Positions 2,292 to 58,055 of a DNA stretch of 64,000 nt are shown here, piece by piece. The position numbers were made by a program, and so were the translations under genes. Position 1 is the stretch's first letter. The number at the start of each line of letters is the position of its first letter. The notes beneath the pieces are model-generated. The model searched no databases. It saw nothing but the letters and a program-made list of their open reading frames with translations, and was not told the origin of the DNA. Origin of the DNA: Candidatus Harrisonbacteria bacterium RIFCSPLOWO2_01_FULL_44_18 (lineage in GTDB: Bacteria > Patescibacteriota > Minisyncoccia > UBA6257 > WO2-44-18); the NCBI GenBank assembly GCA_001817915.1, contig MHJJ01000014.1, positions 3,695 through 67,694 of the forward strand, in the 5' to 3' direction.

Positions 2292-2323
2292 TACTTCTAT
2301 TTCACAATCGGAATATAGAAGTA
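2292..2323. promoter_or_regulatory. 32-bp palindromic motif TACTTCTAT-N-ATAGAAGTA upstream of rplS
   Basis: Inverted repeat tacttctat...tatagaagta. A near-identical copy lies at 54723-54754 upstream of pheS and a related core at 14715-14735 upstream of leuS. Confidence 0.5.
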
Positions 2324-2456
2324 TTAACTTGAACGGTTATACGCCCCCTTGTAGCCAGTTTATTTTTATAGTAGGATATATCTATTGTTATATTGTATGG
2401 TTTGACGCGGCTCACCATAAAATGGCACGAATGGTAATCATCATGCGAAAAATCTT

Positions 2457-2846
2457 ATGATTGATTCTGAAACTAACAAAAAAATAAAGCCGGGCGCCGT
2501 GGTGCGTGTTTGGGAGAAAATACTCGCCGAGGGCGGGTCTTCGCCCGACGCCTCGTCAAAGGCAAGCGCGTCTCGGGAGCGCGCTTCTAGTGGAAAAGAA
2601 AGCGATAAATTCCGCTTTAGCAAGTTTGAAGGCCTTGTTTTGGCAAGAAAGCACGGCAATGAGTCCGGAGCCAGTTTTATTGTTCGCGCCACCGTTGCCG
2701 GCGTGGGCGTTGAAAAAGTTTATCCTATTCATTCGCCAATGATTGAAAAAGCGGAAATTATCAGTTCGCCTAAAAAAGTGCGCCGCGCCAAACTTTATTA
2801 CGTTCGCGGACTTTCTAAAAAAGAAACACGCCAGAAATTGGGATAA
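2457..2846 (+). CDS. rplS: 50S ribosomal protein L19
   Basis: KPGAVVRVWEKI ... GVGVEKVYPIHSPMIEKAEII ... RRAKLYYVRG match L19 conserved blocks. Has a Ser/Ala-rich internal insertion. Confidence 0.8.
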   Translation: MIDSETNKKIKPGAVVRVWEKILAEGGSSPDASSKASASRERASSGKESDKFRFSKFEGLVLARKHGNESGASFIVRATVAGVGVEKVYPIHSPMIEKAEIISSPKKVRRAKLYYVRGLSKKETRQKLG

Positions 2847-2876
2847 TGATTGAAAAACGGGATATTTTTAAATCCT

Positions 2877-2958
2877 GCCCAGGTGGAGGAATCGGCAGAC
2901 TCACTACTTTGAGGTGGTAGCGCCGTAAGGCATGCGGGTTCGAATCCCGCCCTGGGCA
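2877..2958 (+). tRNA. tRNA-Leu (anticodon GAG), type II
   Basis: Cloverleaf with acceptor GCCCAGG/CCTGGGC, anticodon loop TTGAGGT, long variable arm and T-arm GCGGGTTCGAATCCCGC. No encoded CCA. Close to E. coli tRNA-Leu(GAG). Confidence 0.85.
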
Positions 2959-2959
2959 C

Positions 2960-2987
2960 TTGACAAATTCTGTGGATATGCTATAAC
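2960..2987 (+). promoter_or_regulatory. sigma70-like promoter (TTGACA-16-TATAAC)
   Basis: cTTGACAAATTctgtggatatGCTATAAc. The same extended box GCTTGACAAATT...TGCTATAAT recurs at 22190-22217 and 13984-14010. Confidence 0.5.
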
Positions 2988-3079
2988 AGGGTTATACTTG
3001 AGTTGGGCGAGCTTATCGTGAGCTCGCTTGATAGCTCAAGGAATCAGTTCTTTGGCAAGGTTTTTGAGTAGGAGGCGCT

Positions 3080-3427
3080 ATGAGTGCTCTCACGATCGTT
3101 CTGGCGGCCAGCATTGTCATCATGGTTTTCGCGGCGGCCCTGATCTACAAGAGCAGGAAGTCCGGGAATCGCAGCGGCCTCGCGTCGGCGGATCAGCCCG
3201 CGCGTCCTCGCCCGAAGGTTCGGTTCGGCCAGTTCGAGACCGACCAACGGGTGGCCGTGCGTGGCATCGATCTCTTCGGGCGAGTCGAAGATCGCATGAT
3301 CGGCATGGGCAGGATCGTCGGCTTTGCCAATGGTGGCCGGGCGGTTCTTCAGATGGACAACCATCGGCCCGGCGTGTTCGTACGGCGAGTCATGCGCCGC
3401 CTCCGTTCGCTTGAGGTGCCTCGCTAG
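3080..3427 (+). CDS. hypothetical small membrane-anchored protein on GC-rich islet
   Basis: 115-aa ORF with a strong SD (AGGAGG) 6 nt upstream and an N-terminal TM helix. Local GC is about 65 % versus 40-45 % around it. A terminator follows on the same strand. Confidence 0.4.
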   Translation: MSALTIVLAASIVIMVFAAALIYKSRKSGNRSGLASADQPARPRPKVRFGQFETDQRVAVRGIDLFGRVEDRMIGMGRIVGFANGGRAVLQMDNHRPGVFVRRVMRRLRSLEVPR

Positions 3428-3543
3428 TATCTCGGTTCGACGGTAGAAGATCGTGGTTTCCGCTACGGTCGCAGTAACTTCCGTAGCGGACTCCTCGGCC
3501 TTCTGAAAAGGCCGACCACCACTCTCTCGGTTCGTCAGCGGAC

Positions 3544-3584
3544 GGCCGCCCAAGGTAACCCCTTGAGGCGGCCATTTTTTTTTG
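3544..3584 (+). terminator. rho-independent terminator ending the GC-rich islet
   Basis: ggccgcc...ggcggcc hairpin followed by a T9 run. Confidence 0.6.
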
Positions 3585-3603
3585 ATAAAATCATATTACC
3601 GAT

Positions 3604-4119
3604 ATGTATGAATGTTGCACTGAAGCGATAGTTTTAGATAAAGAAGATTTAGGCGAGGCGGACGCCCGAGTTTTTTTATTTACAAAATCGTTAGGTAAAG
3701 TTGTGGCGAAAGTTAAAAGCGCGAAAAAAATAACTTCAAAACTATCTTCGCATTTGGAACCGCTGAATTTAATAACCGTCCGGCTGGTGGAAAAGAACGG
3801 TTTTCAAGTGGTAGATGTTTTATCGAATCGGAAACTCCCGCAATCAGAGCTTCATATTTTAAATATGGTTAATCAGCTAAGCGCCGAGAATCAGCAAGAT
3901 CTTGAACTTTGGTCGGTTTTGACCGGCAGCATTGATTTAAGGCCGGTTGATTTTCAGAAACAAATTTTGAGCGCCTTGGGCTTTGATCCGAAATTCGCGA
4001 GTTGTCAAAATTGCGACAGACCCAGACCAGATTATTTTTCTTTGCTTGATACGAGTTACTTATGCCAAATTTGCGCGTTAAAATCAGGGGTTAGACAAAA
4101 TTGTTTTAAATTAAATTAG
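3604..4119 (+). CDS. recO: DNA repair protein RecO
   Basis: N-terminal OB-fold block (AIVLDKEDLGEADARVFLFTKSLGKVVAKVKSAKK) and C-terminal Cys4 zinc motif CQNC...CQIC, as in RecO. Confidence 0.65.
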   Translation: MYECCTEAIVLDKEDLGEADARVFLFTKSLGKVVAKVKSAKKITSKLSSHLEPLNLITVRLVEKNGFQVVDVLSNRKLPQSELHILNMVNQLSAENQQDLELWSVLTGSIDLRPVDFQKQILSALGFDPKFASCQNCDRPRPDYFSLLDTSYLCQICALKSGVRQNCFKLN

Positions 4120-4121
4120 TT

Positions 4122-5840
4122 ATGCTAACGAAACTTTATTGGATTTTAGCAATTGTTTTAATTTTGCTTATCGGTTTAGCCGGATTTTTTTGGTTTCAAT
4201 CCCGTTCAAATCAAGGCTTGGATTTGCAAATTAACGCTCCCGACGAAGTTTTAATTGGAGTGCCTTTTGATTTGGAAATCAACGTAACCAACGATTCCGG
4301 CGGCATTTTAAAAGACAGCAAACTTTCATTGGCCATTCCCGAAGATGTCGTGTTTGTGGGAAGCGCCGTCGGTAAAACCGTGGAATATAAAACATTGGGC
4401 AATTTGGGCGTCGGCAATTTGACCAAAGAAAGTTTTAAACTGATGGCGTTGGGCGAGGAGAATAGCTTGAGGCAAATCGAAGCCACCCTTAGTTATTTGC
4501 CGACTTCTTTGGGATCGCGATTTGAAATCGTAAAAAAAATTGATTTGGAAGCGGGCCAATTCGGCTTAGTTGTTGATTTAACGGCGCCGGAAAAAGTTTT
4601 CAGCGGCGAAGATTTTGAGATCGCCGCTTCTTATAAAAATGTTTCCGGCATTGATCTTTCGGGCCTTATCCTTAAAATGGAATATCCGCCGACGTTTAAT
4701 TTTATAGAATCTTCCTTGGAGCCGGACGCCGGGAACAATGTTTGGAATTTGGGAGATTTGCGGCGAGGTTCGGAAATGGAATTTAAAATAAAAGGAAACC
4801 TTATCGGCCCGGACGATTCATTTTTTGATTTAAGAGCCAGCCTAGAGGCCAATTTTTTGGGTAAAACCTATGTCATCAGCGGTAAATCGGCCAACGTCTC
4901 TATTTCGCCGTCGCCGCTCTCTTTGCGAATTTTCCTAAACGAGGATCCTGATTATGTTGCCGGGCCGGGCGATGTTTTAAATTATTCTCTGGCCTACGCC
5001 AACAACACCGACGTCGCGCTGCGGGACGTTGTTATTGAAGCGAAATTAATCGGTGAAATGTTTGACCTAAAAACTTTAAATACTAACGGAATTACCCGTT
5101 CCGGTGAAAACGCGCTGGTTTGGAACGCGTCAAATTTGCCCGAGCTGGCAGTTTTACCGGTCGGCGCTTCCGGGACAGTGAATTTTCAGACAAAAGTCGC
5201 GAACAGCTACCCCATAAAAAGATTGAGCGATAAAAATTTTGTTCTAAAAGCGGAAGCTCAAATTGAGTCGCCGACTGTGCCGTATTTTGTGGGAGCGCGG
5301 AAAACAGTCGGTCTGGCAAAGCTGGAAACTAAAGTTGCCGGGCAAATAAAAGTTGATACCAAAGTGTATTTTCGAGACGCGGCTTCAGGAATTTTGAATA
5401 AAGGGCCGATGCCTCTTAAAGCGGGGCAACCGACTCAATTTACCGCGCATTGGTTTATTACTAATTTTGGAACAGACGTCAGCGGCGTGGAAGTCAGAGC
5501 ATTTTTGGAAGGAAATGTTAGAATGATAGCAGATAAAACAAAGAGCAATAGCGGCGCTCTTCCGGTTTATAACGAAAGAACGCAGGAAGTGGTTTGGCTG
5601 ATAGATCGGATTCCGGCTACTAAAGGAGTAATCGGCGACCCCCTTGAGGCGATTTTTCAAATTGAGGCAATGCCTTCCGCTAATTTGGCCGGGACTTATA
5701 TGCCGCTTATAAAAAATAGCTCAATAACCGCCACGGACGATTTTACCGGATTAAAATTAAGCGGTTCGGATTTAGCCGCGACCACCGCGCTGCCGGACGA
5801 TCCGACAGTCGGTCCGCAAGGCGGCATCGTTAAGAATTAG
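4122..5840 (+). CDS. hypothetical membrane-anchored protein with repeated beta-rich (DUF11/CARDB-like) domains
   Basis: 572 aa. N-terminal TM helix, then several repeated about 100-aa modules with conserved N..G positions. No catalytic motif recognised. Confidence 0.55.
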   Translation: MLTKLYWILAIVLILLIGLAGFFWFQSRSNQGLDLQINAPDEVLIGVPFDLEINVTNDSGGILKDSKLSLAIPEDVVFVGSAVGKTVEYKTLGNLGVGNLTKESFKLMALGEENSLRQIEATLSYLPTSLGSRFEIVKKIDLEAGQFGLVVDLTAPEKVFSGEDFEIAASYKNVSGIDLSGLILKMEYPPTFNFIESSLEPDAGNNVWNLGDLRRGSEMEFKIKGNLIGPDDSFFDLRASLEANFLGKTYVISGKSANVSISPSPLSLRIFLNEDPDYVAGPGDVLNYSLAYANNTDVALRDVVIEAKLIGEMFDLKTLNTNGITRSGENALVWNASNLPELAVLPVGASGTVNFQTKVANSYPIKRLSDKNFVLKAEAQIESPTVPYFVGARKTVGLAKLETKVAGQIKVDTKVYFRDAASGILNKGPMPLKAGQPTQFTAHWFITNFGTDVSGVEVRAFLEGNVRMIADKTKSNSGALPVYNERTQEVVWLIDRIPATKGVIGDPLEAIFQIEAMPSANLAGTYMPLIKNSSITATDDFTGLKLSGSDLAATTALPDDPTVGPQGGIVKN

Positions 5841-5971
5841 GATTTTCCGTCAGAGGCGGATTCGCCTTCGGCGGAGGAATACAGAATTTAGGATTTAGGT
5901 ATAGGATTGGATAAATTCTACTTCCCTAAATTCTAAATTCTATATCCTATATTCTATTTTCAAAATCAACT

Positions 5972-7420
5972 ATGGATTTAATGGAAAAAATAGTTAATTT
6001 GTGCAAGCGTCGGGGTTTTATTTTTCCCGGCTCGGAAATTTACGGCGGTCTTGCCAACTCTTGGGATTACGGCCCACTTGGAGTTGAATTAAAAAATAAT
6101 ATCAAAAATGAATGGTGGAAAAGATTTGTGCGTCAGCGGACCGATATTGTCGGCATTGACGCCGCTTTAATGATGAATCCGAAAGTATGGGAAGCAAGCG
6201 GCCATCTCAAAGAATTTTCTGATCCGTTGGTGGAGTGCAAGAGTTGCCATAAGAGATTTAGGGTTGATGAATATGGAGACGAAGGAATGAAGGCGAAAAA
6301 AGAAAACCTTCCTGGTTTTTCTAACAAATCTCACCTTCTTAGTGTTAGAAGCAAAAATGATATTGCTTGTAAAAATTGTGGTTTAAAAGGAACACTTACT
6401 GATTTTCGTATGTTTAATTTAATGTTTAAAACTTTCCTCGGTCCTTCGGAAGACAGCGCCAGCGTCGTATATCTGCGTCCGGAAACGGCGCAGGCGATGT
6501 TTGTGGATTTTAAGCAGGTTTTGGAAACTGTCCGCAAGCGCGTGCCTTTCGGCATAGCTCAAGTCGGCAAAGCGTTTCGCAATGAGATAACGCCCGGCAA
6601 TTTTATTTTCCGTACGCGGGAATTTGAGCAAATGGAAATAGAATATTTTATCCGTCCGCCAGCCGGCGAAGAGTGGAAAAAGTATTTTGATATGTGGCTG
6701 GAAGAGATGAAAAATTGGTTAGTAAATTTAGGTGTTGATTTGAAGAAAATCCATTTTCGGGAAATCCCCGAGGAAGAACGAGCCCATTATTCAAAGCGCA
6801 CCGTGGACATTGACTATGAATTTCCGTTTGGCCAAAGCGAACTTTATGGTTTGGCGTATCGCGGCGATTTTGATTTGAAGAATCATATGGAAAAAAGCGG
6901 TCAGGATTTGCGATATACCGACCCGGATACCGGCGAAAAATTTGTGCCGCATGTTATTGAGCCGACTTGGGGAGTAGATAGATCAGTTTTAGTCGCGATG
7001 CTTGAGGCGTATCGCGAAGAGATAGTCGCGGACTCACGCGGACTGGACGCAGACTCGCGCGGAAAGAGAAGTAATGAGGAAGAAACGCGGGTAGTTATGA
7101 AGTTTCCGAAATGGCTCGCGCCGATAAAAGTCGCGATACTTCCGTTGTCCAAAAAGGAAGAGTTAATAAAAATCGCCAAGCCGCTATACGAACAGTTGGC
7201 TAAAAAATTCGTTTGCGAATATGACGAAACGCAGAGTATCGGCAGACGTTATCGCCGCCAAGACGAAATCGGCACGCCCTATTGCGTTACCGTTGATTTT
7301 GAAACAATAAATGATAAAGCGGTAACTATTCGCGATCGCGATACCATGAAACAGGAAAGAGTCGAGATTTCCGCTCTATCTAAAGTCTTAGAACAATCTA
7401 TTGGTTTCGGGAATCAATAG
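5972..7420 (+). CDS. glyQS: glycine--tRNA ligase (dimeric alpha2 type)
   Basis: N-terminal RRGFIFPGSEIYGGLANSWDYGPLG is diagnostic of class II GlyRS. Contains a 10-mer tandem insert at 7027-7063. Confidence 0.9.
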   Translation: MDLMEKIVNLCKRRGFIFPGSEIYGGLANSWDYGPLGVELKNNIKNEWWKRFVRQRTDIVGIDAALMMNPKVWEASGHLKEFSDPLVECKSCHKRFRVDEYGDEGMKAKKENLPGFSNKSHLLSVRSKNDIACKNCGLKGTLTDFRMFNLMFKTFLGPSEDSASVVYLRPETAQAMFVDFKQVLETVRKRVPFGIAQVGKAFRNEITPGNFIFRTREFEQMEIEYFIRPPAGEEWKKYFDMWLEEMKNWLVNLGVDLKKIHFREIPEEERAHYSKRTVDIDYEFPFGQSELYGLAYRGDFDLKNHMEKSGQDLRYTDPDTGEKFVPHVIEPTWGVDRSVLVAMLEAYREEIVADSRGLDADSRGKRSNEEETRVVMKFPKWLAPIKVAILPLSKKEELIKIAKPLYEQLAKKFVCEYDETQSIGRRYRRQDEIGTPYCVTVDFETINDKAVTIRDRDTMKQERVEISALSKVLEQSIGFGNQ

Positions 7421-13962: not shown

Positions 13963-13983
13963 TGTTGTGCCAAAAAATTTGCT

Positions 13984-14010
13984 TGACAAATTTTATAGGT
14001 TTGCTATTAT
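13984..14010 (+). promoter_or_regulatory. sigma70-like promoter (TTGACAAATT...TATTAT)
   Basis: gcTTGACAAATTttataggtttgcTATTAT immediately upstream of the 14062 CDS. Shares the extended box with the 2960 and 22190 promoters. Confidence 0.45.
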
Positions 14011-22167: not shown

Positions 22168-22196
22168 ATTATATTCGATCTTCGGCAACTTGACAA
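22168..22196 (-). promoter_or_regulatory. promoter of the minus-strand tRNA operon (TTGTCA-17-TATAAT)
   Basis: Minus strand reads TTGTCAAGTTGCCGAAGATCGAATATAAT, 8 nt upstream of the first tRNA-like 5' end at 22159. Confidence 0.5.
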
Positions 22197-22217
22197 ATTA
22201 TGTAGACCTGCTATAAT
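22190..22217 (+). promoter_or_regulatory. divergent promoter (TTGACA-16-TATAAT) for the 22259 gene
   Basis: TTGACAAATTatgtagacctgcTATAAT. Its -35 hexamer overlaps the -35 of the opposing tRNA promoter. Confidence 0.5.
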
Positions 22218-40444: not shown

Positions 40445-40945
40445 ATGGCAACTAAAAGAAGCGGTTTTACGGTGGTTGAGCTACTCGTGGCAATGACGGT
40501 GTTTGCCGTTGTCATTACGATTGCCACCGGCAGTTTTATTCGGGCTTTAAGAACCCAGCAAGGAACGGCGGCTTTAATCGCGGTTAATGACAATGCCAAT
40601 TTGACTTTAGAACAAATGGCCCGAGAAATTAGAACCGGGCAGAATTTTACTTCGCCAAATCCGCAGCAGCTTGATTTTACCAGCGCCTTAGCGCATCAAA
40701 TTACCTACCGACTGGATTTGATCAATCAAGCGATTGAACGGACAGACAACGGCGTAGCGCGTCCGATTACCGCCAGCAATGTCAAAGTTAAAAAACTATC
40801 TTTTGTTTTGATCGGCGATCAACTTACCGATGGCCGGCCGCCGCGAGTGACGATTACGCTCACGGTCGGAACTGACGCGCGCAATCTTCAAGATGTTACT
40901 GCCACGCTTCAAACAACCGTTAGTTCCAGAATACTCGATGGATAA
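40445..40945 (+). CDS. type IV pilin-like protein (minor pilin)
   Basis: MATKRSG|FTVVELLVAMTVFAVV prepilin motif. Confidence 0.65.
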   Translation: MATKRSGFTVVELLVAMTVFAVVITIATGSFIRALRTQQGTAALIAVNDNANLTLEQMAREIRTGQNFTSPNPQQLDFTSALAHQITYRLDLINQAIERTDNGVARPITASNVKVKKLSFVLIGDQLTDGRPPRVTITLTVGTDARNLQDVTATLQTTVSSRILDG

Positions 40946-40972
40946 ATCGAATGTGTTATAATAAAAATAACG

Positions 40973-43489
40973 ATGGATAAATGGCTTAAATTATTATCTA
41001 TAGTTTTAATTATTGCCGTTTCGGTTTATTTGATTTCGGCTAAAACCGCGCAAGCGGCTTCTTTCCTGCAAATCATTGCCGGAGTATTCGCGGTTGTTTT
41101 TTCCGTGGCTCTTATCGCGCTTACCGGCGGCCTTGGGGCCGCGGCGGTATGCACTGTTACTTGTGGCGTTGTCGGAGGTTTCGCGTCCGGCGCGGTAGGC
41201 ACCGGCATTGTTGGCGCGGTTAACGCCGGCGCTATCGCTTGCGCCACCGGTTTGATTTGTTCAAGCGGAACAGCCGGGCCGGTCGCGGTTTATGCGCCGC
41301 AAACCGACGAAACCTGCGCTTATCAAGTTAATGTTGCTTTTTATAATACCGATCCTAAACTGCCGGATGATGAATCAGCTCAAGTGGCCATTTACCGTAT
41401 AGATGGGATAAGCACGGAAACATATATTCATGAGTATCATAAAGTTGCTTGGTTGTTAGGCGCTCCGGAAAAAACAGGACCGGGTTTATACAGCTATAGA
41501 TGGGGTGATGGATATTATTCTTACGCCGAATCCGGCCAACTTGGGCTTAATGCCGTAAGCGATTTTTACGGATCTCTTGGCAAAGACTATTACGATCATC
41601 CATGGACTTATAGTCCTTCAGCCAGCCCTCTGGCTATAGTCCCTTATAATAATATCTGTGACGATCAAGGAATGTGCCGATTTATAGACGCCAATCCTCC
41701 GTCCAATCAGTACGTGATTTATATGGCGAAATTGATGAGGAATTATACTCAAGGTGTCGTTAAGGAGTCGGGCGGATTAAAATTTTATAATCCGGATTCG
41801 TCTCTTGCAGATGCAATCGCGGCTGTGCCCGCTAACGCTCAACATAAGACCGCCACCTCTGAAGTTTTTTCCAAGCCGAGCGGTGTTGGAGGAGGGCCTG
41901 GATTTGGAGGAGCAGGGCAGCAGCCGATGCTTCTTTATAAACTATCAGACCCAGCCGGCAAAATAACAAGTAAATTCTTATCGGCAAAACCCGGGGAGCA
42001 AGCGACATTAACAACCGTAACTTATGACAGCGACGATCGTCCGACAAATGTAAATCTCGGCTCGGCGCTTTACTTTTTCGCGATTAAGGGGACGCCTGAT
42101 CCGACATTGTGCGCCATTACGATTACGGGGACGCCGCCTACGACGCCAACCTCCGCGCCGTTTTCCGTTGATTGTTCGGTTTCGCCTTCCAGCGCGGTTG
42201 TTAATCAAAATGTAAATTGGTCAGCTTCGGCTTCCGGAGGAAGCGCTCCTTATGCTTATTCATGGTCAGGCACGGATGGACTTTCCAGTAATTATTCTTC
42301 ATTTAATGTTTCTTATGCCGGTGAAGGCAGTAAAACCGCTTCCGTTACTGCTAATTCGTCAGATGGACAAACGGCGACAGCGAATTGCGGCAGTGTGGCG
42401 ATAGTCCCGGCGCTTTCGGCGAGTTGTTCGGTTTCTCCGACAACGGCAGTGGTTAATCAGTCGGTAACTTGGGACGCGACCGCGTCCGGCGGCGCCGGGT
42501 CTTATGTTTATAGTTGGTCAGGCACCGACGGATTAACCGGCAATAATTCTTTGGTTACGACATCGTATTCAACCTCCGGATTAAAAACCGGAAGCGTGAC
42601 CGTGGGTTCTGGCGGGCAAACCGTAACTGTTAATTGCGCCGGCGGGCCGGGAGGCGGAGTACAGGTGTTTCCGGCGCAGTTGATTGTGGCGCCGCCATCG
42701 GCCACTGTGGATATCAATGAAACGTTACAATTTAACGCGATATACGAACTGGGATCATTTGATTCTCAAGTGGTGACTGCGTCGGCGAATTGGTCTTCAG
42801 ATAATTCGGGCATCGCGGCAGTCAATAATTCCGGTCAAAGGGGCTTAGCTACTGGCGTTTCCGGCGGTTCGGCAAACATCACCGCGAATTATACCGACGC
42901 TTTTGGCAATACTTTTTCAGCCGCTTCCAACATTACCGTGCCTCCCGCGCCTACGGTCAACGTAACTCCGGTGCCTACGGGAGGAGGCGGAGCCGGCGGG
43001 GGAGCAGGCGAATATTGCGGTTCGGTAACGCTTTCTATTGATGTTTCAAATGCGGCTACTTATGACATTCTCCGAAACGGCGTACAAATCGCGTCTGATC
43101 TTTCTCCGTCGCAAACATCTTATACTGATACCAATGTCGCGTTGCACTCCAGTTATCAATATCAAGTCATTGCCGAAAGACCGACAGTTTCCACCGTTTC
43201 CGCGCCGGTTAACGTGTATACCAATTGCCTTCCTCAATGTAGTTTCAGCGCCCAGCCGGCCAGTATTGTAAAATTTGACGATACGGATCTTATTTGGGAT
43301 TGTCAGTACGCGAGCGCTTGTTCGATTTCGCCGACAGTAGGGCCGGTTTCTCCGACCAGCGGCACCAGTAAAGTTTTTCCGGAGAGCGCGATAACTTATA
43401 CGCTGTCCTGCAGCAATGCTGACGGCGCGCGAAATTGGCCAGCCACGGTTAATGTCACCGAACCGGCGATTATTGAAGTAATCCCATAG
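40973..43489 (+). CDS. large secreted Gly/Ala-rich protein with tandem Ig-like (PKD/Big_2-like) domains, candidate pilus-associated adhesin
   Basis: 838 aa. Signal peptide (AQA|AS), then a Gly/Ala/Cys-rich hydrophobic segment. Two about 90-aa repeats (CSVSP..AVVNQ.V.W.A.ASGG...Y.YSWSGTDGL), a Big_2-like module and Cys-containing C-terminal domains. Confidence 0.7.
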   Translation: MDKWLKLLSIVLIIAVSVYLISAKTAQAASFLQIIAGVFAVVFSVALIALTGGLGAAAVCTVTCGVVGGFASGAVGTGIVGAVNAGAIACATGLICSSGTAGPVAVYAPQTDETCAYQVNVAFYNTDPKLPDDESAQVAIYRIDGISTETYIHEYHKVAWLLGAPEKTGPGLYSYRWGDGYYSYAESGQLGLNAVSDFYGSLGKDYYDHPWTYSPSASPLAIVPYNNICDDQGMCRFIDANPPSNQYVIYMAKLMRNYTQGVVKESGGLKFYNPDSSLADAIAAVPANAQHKTATSEVFSKPSGVGGGPGFGGAGQQPMLLYKLSDPAGKITSKFLSAKPGEQATLTTVTYDSDDRPTNVNLGSALYFFAIKGTPDPTLCAITITGTPPTTPTSAPFSVDCSVSPSSAVVNQNVNWSASASGGSAPYAYSWSGTDGLSSNYSSFNVSYAGEGSKTASVTANSSDGQTATANCGSVAIVPALSASCSVSPTTAVVNQSVTWDATASGGAGSYVYSWSGTDGLTGNNSLVTTSYSTSGLKTGSVTVGSGGQTVTVNCAGGPGGGVQVFPAQLIVAPPSATVDINETLQFNAIYELGSFDSQVVTASANWSSDNSGIAAVNNSGQRGLATGVSGGSANITANYTDAFGNTFSAASNITVPPAPTVNVTPVPTGGGGAGGGAGEYCGSVTLSIDVSNAATYDILRNGVQIASDLSPSQTSYTDTNVALHSSYQYQVIAERPTVSTVSAPVNVYTNCLPQCSFSAQPASIVKFDDTDLIWDCQYASACSISPTVGPVSPTSGTSKVFPESAITYTLSCSNADGARNWPATVNVTEPAIIEVIP

Positions 43490-56084: not shown

Positions 56085-58055
56085 ATGAAATTTTCCTACA
56101 CATTATTAAAAAAACTGGCGCCCGTTATAAAAAGCTCCGAGCAACTGATGGAAGCCTTAGCTTTTCATGCTTTTGAAGTTGAAAAAGTTGATGGCGATGT
56201 TATAGACATCGTCATTCCTGCTAATCGTTATTCTGATGCCGCCTCGCATTATGGGATGGCCGTGGTAGTGTCGGCAATTTTAGGCAAAAAAACGCCAGAA
56301 TTAAAACTGCCGGCGCTAAAGTCTAAAGCGCAAAGTTTAAACTTCAAAGTTGGCATTGATTCCAAAAAGCTTTGTCCGCGTTACAGCGGACTTTATGCCG
56401 AGATTAACAAGATTGGTAAATCTCCCGAGTGGATGCAAAAAATTTTAATTTCCTGCGGTTTGCGTCCAATTAACAACATCGTTGACGTGATGAATTATGT
56501 GATGCTGGAAATAGGACAACCATTACACGCTTTCGATTTTGACGAAATAGAAAGCGTGAAATCCAAAATCCAAAATCCAAAATCCAAAAATATTGTCGTT
56601 AGATTAGCAAAAGAAGGCGAAAAAATTGAAACAATTGATGGTGGCAAATATGACCTCGATGTAAATGATTTAGTAATAGCGGATGAAAAAGGGGCATTAG
56701 CGATTGCCGGGGTAAAAGGCGGAAAGCGCGCCGAGGTTTCTTTAAAAACTAAACGTATTATTGTTGAGGCGGCGAATTTCGATTCGGTTAGCGTTTACAA
56801 AACTTCTCGGCGGCTCAATTTATTCACTGATGCTTCGGCGCGCTTTTCTCATGGACTAGCACCCGTGTTAGTTGAAAAGGGGATTAAGAGAGCGGCTCAG
56901 CTTTTGAAAGAAGTTTGCGGCGCCAGATTGGGCGATTGGCTCGATGTGAACTATGTGAAGCCGAGTAAAACGATTATCAAGTTTGACGTGGAAAGATTTA
57001 ATAAGTTGACCGGACTTAGTTTAAGCGAAAAAGCGTGTTTGGAATATCTTAAAAAATTAGGATTTCAAGCAAGGGGCAAATTTATTGAGCCGCCGGCTGA
57101 ACGGACCGACATTTTGATTTTCGAGGATTTAGCCGAGGAAATTGTTAATCTTTATGGGTATGACCGGTTGCTTTCGGTTGTCCCGCGCGCGCTCTTGAGC
57201 CCTTCTGGAGCGGAAGATCAAATAGTTCTTAAAGATAAAATCAGAAGCATTCTAACCGGCTTTGGCTTGAGTGAAGTTTATAATTATTCTTTCATCGGAG
57301 AGCCTGATCCGAATCTACAAAATAAATTTTCATTGGTGGAGCTGGTAAATCCAATTGCCGATGATAAGAAATACCTGCGGCCCAGTTTATTTCCTCACTT
57401 GACTAGAAATATCGAAGAGAATTTTCGGTTTTACGATGAAGTAAGGATTTTTGAAATCGGTCGCGTTTTTGCGAAGGCAAGCGGCAAGAACGGTATAGCA
57501 AGCGGCATTAATGAGCAATTGAGTTTGGGGATCGCATTGGGGCTTAAAAAAGGCGCGCCATTTTTGGAGTTGAAAGGAATTGTTGAACAAATGCTCGGAC
57601 AAGCGGGCTTAGTTGATTATTTTACAAAAGAAGACGGCGAAGGTCGTTTACGGCTTGAATCCGATCATCGCACGCTCGGGTATTTAATTGCCAAAGACAA
57701 TAAAGCCCTTGCGGAAATTAATCTTGATGAATTGCTTCAATTGGTGGTCGGCGAAAAAGAATATAGGCCATTGCCGAAATATCCATCGGCGACGCGCGAT
57801 CTTTCATTTATGGTTGACGCTGAAGCGAGAGTAGCCGCGATTCAAAATATTATTGAAAATACCAGCCATTTACTCGATGACGCCGACTTATTGGATTGGT
57901 ACGAAGACCCGAAACTTGGCCCGAATAGAAAAAGTCTTACTTTTCGATTAGTTTTCCAAGCCGAAGATCGAACTTTAACCGATGAGGAAGTCGATCAAGA
58001 GTTAGGCAAAATTGTAGCCAGTTTGAAGGAGAAGTTTGATGTAGAATTAAGATAA
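56085..58055 (+). CDS. pheT: phenylalanine--tRNA ligase beta subunit (short form)
   Basis: B3/4 and B5 domain blocks and a C-terminal FDSA-like domain. Follows pheS. In-frame AAATCCA repeat at 56559-56590. Confidence 0.85.
   Translation: MKFSYTLLKKLAPVIKSSEQLMEALAFHAFEVEKVDGDVIDIVIPANRYSDAASHYGMAVVVSAILGKKTPELKLPALKSKAQSLNFKVGIDSKKLCPRYSGLYAEINKIGKSPEWMQKILISCGLRPINNIVDVMNYVMLEIGQPLHAFDFDEIESVKSKIQNPKSKNIVVRLAKEGEKIETIDGGKYDLDVNDLVIADEKGALAIAGVKGGKRAEVSLKTKRIIVEAANFDSVSVYKTSRRLNLFTDASARFSHGLAPVLVEKGIKRAAQLLKEVCGARLGDWLDVNYVKPSKTIIKFDVERFNKLTGLSLSEKACLEYLKKLGFQARGKFIEPPAERTDILIFEDLAEEIVNLYGYDRLLSVVPRALLSPSGAEDQIVLKDKIRSILTGFGLSEVYNYSFIGEPDPNLQNKFSLVELVNPIADDKKYLRPSLFPHLTRNIEENFRFYDEVRIFEIGRVFAKASGKNGIASGINEQLSLGIALGLKKGAPFLELKGIVEQMLGQAGLVDYFTKEDGEGRLRLESDHRTLGYLIAKDNKALAEINLDELLQLVVGEKEYRPLPKYPSATRDLSFMVDAEARVAAIQNIIENTSHLLDDADLLDWYEDPKLGPNRKSLTFRLVFQAEDRTLTDEEVDQELGKIVASLKEKFDVELR

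What the first reader, a model, noticed from the sequence alone, without database searches (positions are those of the whole stretch)
3000..3590. GC-rich (~65 %) islet inserted immediately 3' of tRNA-Leu(GAG)
Composition jumps from about 42 % to about 65 % GC for about 580 bp. The islet is bounded by the tRNA-Leu 3' end on one side and a strong terminator on the other. It encodes a 115-aa membrane-anchored protein with high-GC codon usage and a canonical AGGAGG SD. A tRNA-adjacent compositionally foreign segment is the classic footprint of horizontal acquisition. No integrase or att duplication is visible.
Basis: seen in the sequence. Interest (0 to 1): 0.5.

Follow-up and report, generated by a model that had tools for sequence, protein, structure and literature searches.

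The report
GC-rich orphan membrane-protein gene beside tRNA-Leu
The GC-rich patch is a real, separately transcribed gene for a small membrane-anchored protein from a tiny uncharacterised family, and its GC-richness travels with that family, so it is not clear evidence of recent insertion at the tRNA.

Summary
Window 3076-3578 is the most GC-rich stretch of the 64 kb (65.7% against 44.0 ± 4.7%) and the most tetranucleotide-deviant. Contigs from at least 12 independent assemblies reproduce both junctions, so it is not a mis-join. It matches no known RNA family.

It is a one-gene transcription unit:
- a promoter of the host's own type
- a hairpin at the 5' end
- AGGAGG followed by a 115-aa ORF
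- two 3' hairpins and a terminator

The ORF is a real gene. An exhaustive HMMER search found two homologs of 101 and 108 aa, with aligned N-termini and the same layout. Third codon positions are the least conserved. The predicted protein has an N-terminal membrane helix, a disordered linker and an SH3-like small beta-barrel. Its function is unknown.

The family has only three members among about 15 billion proteins. In all three hosts (44, 51 and 53% GC) the gene has GC3 of 0.75-0.82, above its neighbours. High GC is therefore a family trait and cannot date an acquisition.

I found no integrase and no repeat of the tRNA 3' end. About 120 nt of host-like promoter and leader separate the tRNA from the GC-rich core. 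Lateral origin remains plausible, because the family is patchy and sits in a different genomic context here. Integration at the tRNA is not supported. Interest is modest.

The parts
2877..2959 (+). tRNA-Leu(GAG). This is the upstream neighbour, and no CCA is encoded. It is context only and not demonstrably part of the unit.
   Evidence: ARAGORN. Rfam tRNA, 49.2 bits.
2960..2987 (+). Sigma-70-type promoter: TTGACA (2960-2965), a 16-nt spacer ending in TGC, then TATAAC (2982-2987). The -35 hexamer directly abuts the tRNA 3' end. The predicted start of transcription is near 2994 (inferred).
   Evidence: Sequence. The same extended motif, TTGACAAATT-N10-TGCTATA, occurs exactly at 22190 and with one mismatch at 13983; four matches were found against 0.17 expected. 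Both homologs carry the same promoter architecture.
2997..3040 (+). Stem-loop at the 5' end of the leader, about 19 pairs. Inferred to stabilise the mRNA. It is absent from the two homologs.
   Evidence: RNA folds. The 86-nt leader folds at -28 kcal/mol, z = -2.0. Alignment A2 shows it as a window-specific insertion.
3070..3075 (+). Shine-Dalgarno sequence AGGAGG, 4 nt before the ATG.
   Evidence: Sequence. The homologs have AAGGAG at the equivalent place.
3080..3427 (+). CDS of 115 aa (NCBI OGY63070.1 / OGY65148.1, hypothetical protein A2745_01445). It has a membrane helix at about residues 3-28, a basic and disordered linker at 29-48, and an SH3-like beta-barrel domain at about 57-110 with a basic C-terminal VRRxxRRLR motif.
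3459..3515 (+). Two GC-rich hairpins in the 3' UTR: 3459-3490 with a 10-bp stem and 3495-3515 with an 8-bp stem. They are specific to the window; in the homologs the stop codon is followed directly by the terminator.
   Evidence: Fold (z = -2.6). Inverted repeat I1. Alignment A3.
3544..3583 (+). Intrinsic terminator: a GGCCGCC-CAAGG / CCTTG-A-GGCGGCC stem followed by A and T9.
   Evidence: Fold at -28.4 kcal/mol, z = -4.8. Equivalent terminators follow both homologs (z = -4.6 and -5.8).
3604..4119 (+). recO, the downstream neighbour, with host-like composition. Context only.
   Evidence: Pfam RecO_N, 8.7e-13. GC3 is 0.37.

Best explanation
The islet is a genuine one-gene transcription unit in a Candidatus Harrisonbacteria (CPR/Parcubacteria) genome from the Rifle aquifer.

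Anatomy: a strong promoter of the host's own type sits directly after tRNA-Leu. It drives an mRNA that starts with a stable 5' hairpin, carries an AGGAGG ribosome-binding site and a 115-codon ORF, and ends in two hairpins plus an intrinsic terminator.

Product: a single-pass membrane protein. The N-terminal helix is followed by a K/R cluster, so the C-terminus should face the cytoplasm (inferred from the positive-inside rule). A flexible basic linker ties an SH3-like small beta-barrel of about 55 residues, with an Arg-rich tail, to the membrane. Most likely this is a membrane-tethered binding or adaptor module for a protein or nucleic-acid partner (inferred from the fold only).

Family: extremely rare, with three members. 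All three are stand-alone units of promoter, ORF and terminator next to a tRNA gene. All three have GC3 of 0.75-0.82 whatever the host's GC. The GC-richness is therefore a maintained property of the gene family. It could be held by selection on the mRNA, or by continued exchange with an unsampled GC-rich gene pool.

Origin: the patchy distribution and the different genomic context here suggest the gene reached this position by lateral transfer or relocation at some point. It did not arrive as an integrase-borne island targeted to the tRNA.
For: Shown:
- Real junctions. Independently assembled contigs, identical to the window across the islet and its junctions, cover one or both boundaries.
- Coding. 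Two homologs turned up in an exhaustive phmmer search of 1.84 billion representatives. P0097 scored E = 1.5e-5 against the library and 1e-14 pairwise; P0099 scored 2.1e-4 and 8e-9. Their N-termini align, the TM/linker/domain layout matches, and 23 columns are invariant. Third codon positions are the least conserved, 0.36-0.42 against 0.50-0.61. GC3 > GC1 > GC2.
- Rarity. A profile search of 5.8 billion clusters, a metagenome scan and a viral scan added no members.
- Common unit architecture and tRNA adjacency.
- GC3 against neighbours: 0.767 vs 0.446 +/- 0.033 in the window, 0.745 vs 0.55-0.62 in L024, and 0.817 vs 0.61-0.62 in L028.
- Age of the trait. L024 and L028 share the order ORF - tRNA-His - M28 peptidase. 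Their M28 proteins are only 56% identical and their tRNA-His genes match at 48 of 72 positions.
- Host-type promoter.
- No integrase in the neighbourhood and no tRNA-end repeat.
Against: - Function and topology are inferred only. The AF2 model rests on three sequences (mean pLDDT 68.6), and the fold is too generic to name a partner.
- The GC3 excess in the two homologs is judged against only 2-5 neighbouring genes each.
- The hosts of the homologs are not identified taxonomically.
- No close relative with an empty site was found, so the timing and direction of any transfer are open.
- No consistent extra mRNA structure appears in the CDS. Synonymous-shuffle z is +0.2 for the window gene and -2.3 and -2.7 for the homologs, while the rplS control gives -2.2. 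The selective reason for high GC3 is therefore unexplained.
- There are no expression data.
Confidence: 0.6

Rival explanations
1. One reading: this is a remnant of a tRNA-targeted integrative element. A foreign GC-rich segment integrated at the 3' end of tRNA-Leu and later lost its integrase and its att repeat.
For: - It is the most extreme compositional outlier of the window and lies next to a tRNA.
- The homologs also lie next to a tRNA gene.
- An rve transposase sits 180 nt upstream of one homolog.
- The family is patchy, and the context here differs from that of the homologs.
Against: - There is no repeat of the tRNA-Leu 3' end at the far boundary.
- No recombinase occurs among the neighbours, which are a HAD hydrolase, DUF4012, GT4, FolD, L19, RecO, a 572-aa protein and an aminoacyl-tRNA synthetase.
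- A host-type promoter abuts the tRNA, and host-like GC extends to about 3075.
- In the homologs the gene lies 5' of tRNA-His, which is not the side integrases normally use.
- The homologs keep high GC3 at a syntenic site across deep divergence, so composition does not date an insertion.
Confidence: 0.15
2. The gene is an ancient, vertically inherited, lineage-restricted gene that most relatives have lost. Its GC-rich synonymous sites are held entirely by selection, for example for mRNA stability or expression, and no lateral transfer was involved.
For: - GC3 is 0.75-0.82 in all three hosts, although synonymous sites are saturated between copies.
- L024 and L028 are syntenic.
- The promoter is of host type.
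- The mRNA is bracketed by 5' and 3' hairpins.
Against: - Only three members exist among about 15 billion proteins, which would require very many losses.
- The window's context (rplS - tRNA-Leu / recO) is unrelated to that of the homologs (tRNA-His - M28).
- The region upstream of recO is a synteny breakpoint in relatives.
- The dinucleotide signature is also atypical for the host.
- No CDS-specific structure signal appears in the window gene.
Confidence: 0.2
3. The islet is a structured non-coding RNA, GC-rich for folding, and the ORF is a by-product of its composition.
For: - The whole transcript folds better than dinucleotide shuffles (z = -3.2).
- Long ORFs arise easily at 64% GC. A 169-aa antisense ORF and a 128-aa ORF in another sense frame are present.
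Against: - No Rfam family matches even at E <= 10.
- The homologs conserve the protein, with the third codon position the least conserved and the start codons aligned.
- The antisense ORFs are not conserved.
- RNAalifold gives a covariation term of only -2.2, with many broken pairs.
- The window CDS is no more structured than its synonymous shuffles.
Confidence: 0.03
4. The islet is an assembly chimera, or contaminating high-GC DNA joined into a low-GC contig.
For: - The composition changes abruptly.
- Many metagenome contigs end or begin near the islet (3491-3721), and one 655-nt contig covers only 2976-3630.
Against: - Contigs identical to the window across the islet span the left junction (L001-L005), the right junction (L014-L017) or both (L006, L007, L008, L013). 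They come from different samples and assemblers.
- The breaks coincide with strain SNPs at 3718-3747 inside recO.
- The homologs show the same gene embedded in other genomes.
Confidence: 0.02

Closest known systems
tRNA-associated genomic islands or islets (integrase-mediated, att-flanked)
   Same: A compositionally deviant segment lies next to a tRNA gene and carries an accessory gene with a patchy distribution.
   Different: - It is only about 0.5 kb and holds one gene.
- It has no integrase and no duplication of the tRNA 3' end.
- A host-type promoter lies between the tRNA and the deviant core.
- The deviant composition is shared by homologs in other hosts.
SH3-like small beta-barrel domains (KOW of Spt5/NusG, Tudor, PWWP, chromo, KapB, R67 DHFR; survey in bioRxiv 10.1101/140376)
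   Different: - There is no sequence-profile match to any Pfam, NCBIfam or PDB family.
- The barrel is tethered to the membrane by an N-terminal helix.
- No conserved KOW or Tudor signature residues were identified.
Orphan (ORFan) genes of CPR bacteria, which have many lineage-specific hypothetical proteins. The genome comes from the Rifle aquifer MAG set (Anantharaman et al. 2016, PMC5079060, a paper that mentions Harrisonbacteria).
   Same: An unannotated hypothetical protein with almost no homologs in a streamlined CPR genome.
   Different: The gene has its own consensus promoter and terminator. Its GC3 lies about 10 sd above the host's genes, and that trait is shared across the family.
Type I toxins (Hok/Gef/MokW-like small membrane peptides)
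   Same: A small protein with an N-terminal hydrophobic helix is encoded by a structured, stand-alone mRNA. One family member gave a weak PHROG hit to MokW-like host killing (E = 0.089).
   Different: - At 101-115 aa it is about twice as long as these toxins, and it has a conserved soluble domain.
- The hit is not significant and occurs in only one member.
- No antisense RNA or antisense promoter is evident.

Membership tests
tRNA-targeted integrative island/islet | A site-specific recombinase (integrase) gene within or next to the segment | tested here: not met
   The ORFs and called genes around the islet are a HAD hydrolase, DUF4012, GT4, FolD, L19, the 115-aa ORF, RecO, a 572-aa protein and an aminoacyl-tRNA synthetase.
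tRNA-targeted integrative island/islet | A direct repeat of the tRNA 3' end (attL/attR) at the distal boundary | tested here: not met
   The repeat finder on 2800-3750 with a 7-nt seed found no repeat involving 2930-2960. The only repeats are chance-level 10-12-mers inside the islet.
tRNA-targeted integrative island/islet | The foreign composition starts at the tRNA 3' end | tested here: not met
   GC is 42-50% from 2951 to 3075, and that stretch holds a host-type promoter. The rise begins near 3076.
tRNA-targeted integrative island/islet | Presence/absence polymorphism among close relatives (an empty site) | not testable with these tools
   The closest RecO relative is 61% identical and lies on a 2-kb contig that starts 85 nt upstream of recO. 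Other relatives are 55% identical or less and have different genes upstream.
Known structured RNA family (Rfam 15: RNase P, tmRNA, 6S, ROOL, GOLLD and others) | A covariance-model match | tested here: not met
   Only the tRNA passes. The best other match is a terminator-like ctRNA hit at 20 bits, E = 0.23.
Known structured RNA family (Rfam 15: RNase P, tmRNA, 6S, ROOL, GOLLD and others) | Conservation of base pairs rather than of codons among homologs | tested here: not met
   The third codon position is the least conserved. RNAalifold gives a covariation term of -2.2 with many broken pairs across three sequences.
SH3-like small beta-barrel fold | A five-stranded small barrel topology | tested here: met
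KOW / Tudor / SH3 sequence families (Pfam) | A profile-HMM match above the family threshold | tested here: not met
   Pfam gave 0 families for the 115-aa protein at E <= 1. NCBIfam gave 0. The best PDB sequence-profile hit was E = 0.17.
Type I toxin (Hok/Gef-like) | A hydrophobic peptide under about 60 aa with a cognate antisense RNA | tested here: not met
   The family proteins are 101-115 aa and have a conserved soluble domain. The PHROG MokW hit was E = 0.089 in one of three members. No antisense promoter was reported in 2300-4300.

The most novel reading that the evidence does not exclude
The three family members may be copies of a minimal, integrase-less gene cassette (promoter, ORF, terminator). 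It would either move between tRNA-proximal sites of CPR-type bacteria, or be under unusual selection that holds GC3 at about 0.8 regardless of a host GC3 of 0.45-0.62. Either way, nucleotide composition would be functionally constrained at the mRNA level, for example in a dual-function or exceptionally stabilised mRNA. Composition-based HGT calls for such genes in CPR genomes would then be misleading.
Probability: 0.15. Interest if true: 0.55.

Novelty: new member of a known kind. Interest (0 to 1): 0.3.

Why it matters
The practical value is cautionary. A textbook-looking HGT footprint, a GC jump next to a tRNA, turns out to be a well-formed gene with a host-type promoter. Its odd composition is shared by distant homologs in other hosts, so composition alone cannot date or prove an acquisition.

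The work also defines a previously unrecognised protein family. It has three members, each a membrane-tethered SH3-like barrel, and it occurs in uncultured groundwater bacteria. A gene that holds GC3 near 0.8 in genomes of 44-53% GC is a small, testable case for selection on synonymous sites or on mRNA stability.

None of this changes current understanding of CPR biology.

Tried and rejected
- **Known RNA families:** Rfam at gathering threshold and at E <= 10 gave nothing but the tRNA. A GGAAGTCCGGG string that resembles RNase P CR-I was noted by eye. I dismissed it because no RNase P model matched and that stretch is not conserved in the homologs.
- **Similar DNA in phages or plasmids:** blastn found no match.
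- **Protein family libraries:** Pfam, PHROGs, PADLOC, NCBIfam and PDB sequence searches gave nothing significant.
- **First protein search:** the word-indexed search found only the protein itself. The exhaustive phmmer was needed to find the two homologs. Four other hits there (P0095, P0096, P0098, P0100) are long proteins (836-1323 aa) matched only over several short stretches; the two I inspected, P0095 and P0096, are internally repetitive, and I treated all four as spurious.
- **Further members:** the profile search, metagenome scan and viral scan added none.
- **Empty site through recO relatives:** Genome contigs and five context look-ups showed that recO, the 572-aa gene and the aaRS gene stay together, but the region upstream of recO varies. 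No empty site could be obtained.
- **Contig breaks as a sign of presence/absence polymorphism:** all contigs agree with the window, and the breaks coincide with strain SNPs in recO.
- **Antisense 169-aa ORF as the real gene:** rejected. It is not conserved in the homologs, and in L025 the antisense ORF runs through tRNA-His.
- **Selection for CDS secondary structure:** the synonymous-codon shuffle test was inconsistent and no better than the rplS control.
- **The 10-nt direct repeat TCTCGGTTCG** flanking the two extra 3' hairpins: about 0.4 such repeats are expected by chance in 951 nt (my estimate), so I did not pursue it.
- **afdb50 fold search:** the library was unavailable.

Full report
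**1. The observation**

The sequence is as described. tRNA-Leu(GAG) lies at 2877-2959. GC rises from about 42-50% to 56-74% between about 3076 and 3578, then drops to 26-38%.

In 300-nt windows the peak is 65.7% (3124-3423), against a window-wide mean of 44.0% and sd of 4.7%. That is the maximum of the 64 kb. The other peaks are weaker (at most 59%) and ordinary. One is a tRNA cluster at 21.8-22.2 kb. The other is an 838-aa surface protein rich in G, A, S and T at 40973-43489.

The four 500-nt windows that start at 2901-3201 are the four most tetranucleotide-deviant windows in the 64 kb. A GC-normalised dinucleotide measure ranks the window starting at 3001 second.

The 115-aa ORF (3080-3427) follows AGGAGG (3070-3075). 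Its GC1/2/3 is 0.67/0.47/0.77. The 27 long ORFs of the window have GC3 of 0.446 +/- 0.033, with a maximum of 0.50. A bulged stem-loop plus T9 at 3544-3583 is a convincing intrinsic terminator (z = -4.8).

One correction is needed. The GC-rich core does not begin at the tRNA. Positions 2960-3075 have host-like composition.

**2. It is not an artefact**

The 115-aa protein is NCBI 'hypothetical protein A2745_01445' of Candidatus Harrisonbacteria bacterium RIFCSPHIGHO2_01_FULL_44_13. Harrisonbacteria is one of the CPR groups named in the Rifle aquifer study (PMC5079060).

Contigs that carry the ORF or recO come from different samples and assemblers (JGI, ENA megahit and scaffolds, Logan). Across the islet and both junctions they match the window exactly, and between them they span both junctions.

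Many of these contigs end between 3630 and 3721 or begin at 3491-3526. The one slightly divergent contig, L002, has four SNPs at 3718-3747, inside recO. The breaks are therefore better explained by strain variation there than by a join at the islet. No contig lacking the islet was seen.

**3. Anatomy of the unit**

- **Promoter.** Directly after the tRNA comes TTGACA (2960-2965), a 16-nt spacer ending in TGC, and TATAAC (2982-2987). The extended motif TTGACAAATT-N10-TGCTATA recurs at 22190 (exact) and at 13983 (one mismatch) in front of other genes of the window. Four matches were found against 0.17 expected by chance. This is the host's own kind of strong promoter.
- **Leader.** The predicted leader begins with a hairpin of about 19 bp (2997-3040).
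- **3' end.** After the stop codon come two GC-rich hairpins (3459-3490 and 3495-3515) and then the terminator.
- **Neighbours.** rplS lies upstream (2457-2846) and recO downstream (3604-4119). Both have host-like composition.

**4. Coding gene or RNA?**

Rfam gives nothing but the tRNA, even at E <= 10.

The word-indexed protein search found only the protein itself. An exhaustive phmmer search of 1.84 billion cluster representatives found two small proteins with the same layout. P0097 (101 aa) scored E = 1.5e-5 against the library and 1e-14 pairwise. P0099 (108 aa) scored 2.1e-4 and 8e-9.

- The three N-termini align, which confirms the start codon.
- All three have a hydrophobic helix followed by basic residues, a variable linker, and a conserved block: G..E....VA......FG.V.D...G....F...G..V...VRR...RLR.
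- At the DNA level, identity by codon position is 0.50-0.56, 0.54-0.61 and 0.36-0.42. The third position is the most diverged and close to saturation. That is the signature of selection on a protein.
- Antisense ORFs are not conserved.
- RNAalifold on the three transcripts gives a covariation term of only -2.2 kcal/mol, with many broken pairs.
- Synonymous-codon shuffles show no extra structure in the window's CDS (z = +0.2). The homologs give -2.3 and -2.7, and the rplS control gives -2.2.

The ORF is a real gene.

**5. The protein**

With the three-sequence alignment, AlphaFold2 gives:
- a helix at residues 3-28
- a low-confidence linker at 29-48
- a five-stranded beta domain at 57-110, with pLDDT 70-80

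Pfam, NCBIfam, PHROGs, PADLOC and PDB sequence profiles give nothing significant.

The K/R cluster right after the helix implies, by the positive-inside rule (established knowledge, applied here by inference), that the barrel is cytoplasmic and tethered to the membrane. My best guess is a membrane-tethered binding or adaptor module. This step is inferred and not shown.

**6. The family and its contexts**

A profile search of 5.8 billion clusters, a metagenome-contig scan and a viral-contig scan added no members. The family therefore has three sequence clusters among about 15 billion proteins.

Both homologs sit in the same arrangement: promoter (TTGACAAAT...TGCTATA), AAGGAG, ORF, intrinsic terminator, tRNA-His(GTG), then M28 peptidase. 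In L024 this continues with groES, groEL and IMPDH.

Upstream, one lineage has an rve transposase and the other an M48 peptidase. The two host lineages are far apart. Their M28 proteins are 56% identical and their tRNA-His genes match at 48 of 72 positions.

All three genes are thus stand-alone units next to a tRNA gene. In the window the gene lies 3' of tRNA-Leu. In the homologs it lies 5' of tRNA-His.

**7. What the composition means**

| Locus | Host GC | Gene GC3 | Neighbours' GC3 |
|---|---|---|---|
| Window | 44% | 0.767 | 0.446 +/- 0.033 (27 long ORFs) |
| L024 | 51% | 0.745 | 0.55-0.62 (five neighbours) |
| L028 | 53% | 0.817 | 0.61-0.62 (two neighbours) |

Each gene has only five A-ending codons. 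GC3 is therefore 0.75-0.82 in all three hosts, even though synonymous sites between the copies are saturated.

L024 and L028 share the locus, and their flanking genes are deeply diverged. The simplest reading is long residence there without amelioration. On that reading the GC-richness is maintained and belongs to the family. It is not a fresh donor signature.

The same reasoning weakens the inference of recent acquisition for the window. It does not remove the possibility of lateral origin:
- The family is extremely patchy.
- The window's context is unrelated to that of the homologs.
- The region upstream of recO is a synteny breakpoint in relatives, while recO, the 572-aa gene and the aaRS gene stay together.
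- The dinucleotide signature is atypical for the host.

What maintains the high GC3 is unexplained. mRNA stability is a reasonable guess, given the 5'-terminal hairpin and the 3' hairpins. The CDS-structure test gave no consistent support.

**8. The tRNA-integration model**

- There is no integrase among the neighbours.
- No repeat of the tRNA-Leu 3' end occurs anywhere in 2800-3750.
- The -35 hexamer of a host-type promoter abuts the tRNA.
- About 120 nt of host-like sequence separate the tRNA from the deviant core.
- No empty site could be obtained. The nearest RecO relative is only 61% identical and lies on a 2-kb contig that starts 85 nt upstream of recO.

The classic model is not supported, but a very old and eroded event cannot be excluded.

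**9. Verdict**

What is present is a well-formed monocistronic gene for a membrane-tethered SH3-like small protein. It belongs to a three-member orphan family whose GC-rich codon usage does not depend on host composition.

It is a new, uncharacterised family of an ordinary kind, an orphan accessory gene. The one curious property, maintained high GC3, is worth a note. It also warns against composition-only HGT calls. Interest is modest.

Noticed in passing
window 2960-2987, 13983-14008, 22190-22215 (also 56179-56204, weaker): A recurrent extended promoter motif, cTTGACAAATT-N10-TGCTATA(A/T)T, gives four matches against 0.17 expected. It appears to be this organism's strong-promoter consensus. 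The same motif precedes the two homologs in other genomes (L025 964-989, L028 930-955).
   Followed up: partly
window 2457-2846 (rplS): Ribosomal protein L19 carries an extra low-complexity segment of about 25-30 residues rich in S, A and E (roughly residues 24-50). The Pfam match only starts at residue 47, at profile position 31. The segment produces a local GC bump of 50-55% at 2500-2700.
   Followed up: no
window 3718-3747 (inside recO); also 317-346: Clustered strain SNPs, four within 30 nt, occur in one independently assembled contig (L002). Several other assemblies break at the same place (contig ends at 3716 and 3721). This suggests co-existing strains in the aquifer samples.
   Followed up: partly
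window 3604-7119 and loci L010, L011, L012, L019, L021, L023: A short RecO (157-185 aa) is followed in all examined relatives (40-55% RecO identity) by a conserved protein of about 570-630 aa, with no confident Pfam domain and an N-terminal membrane helix. An aminoacyl-tRNA synthetase gene (tRNA-synt_2b plus HGTP_anticodon) follows in the window and in L019, L021 and L023. The region upstream of recO is variable.
   Followed up: partly
window 40445-43489: A pilin-like protein with a prepilin-type N-terminus (GFTVVELLVAM) is followed by an 838-aa G/A/S/T-rich repeat protein. The latter accounts for the second-tier GC peaks (58-59%) at 41.0-42.7 kb.
   Followed up: no
window 3430-3439 and 3525-3534: An exact 10-nt direct repeat, TCTCGGTTCG, brackets the two extra 3'-UTR hairpins that the homologs lack. 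About 0.4 such repeats are expected by chance in this region (my estimate), so it may mean nothing.
   Followed up: partly
L025 11-859 and L027 90-938: An rve-family (IS-type) transposase lies about 180 nt upstream of, and divergent from, the P0097 homolog. Contigs L024 and L026 start just short of it, as expected for a repeated IS.
   Followed up: no
window 3394-3416 (CDS codons for VRR...RRL): A short CGGCG-N7-CGCCG hairpin is present in all three homologs (A3 columns 396-412). It shows no covariation and coincides with invariant Arg codons, so it is probably a by-product of protein conservation.
   Followed up: partly
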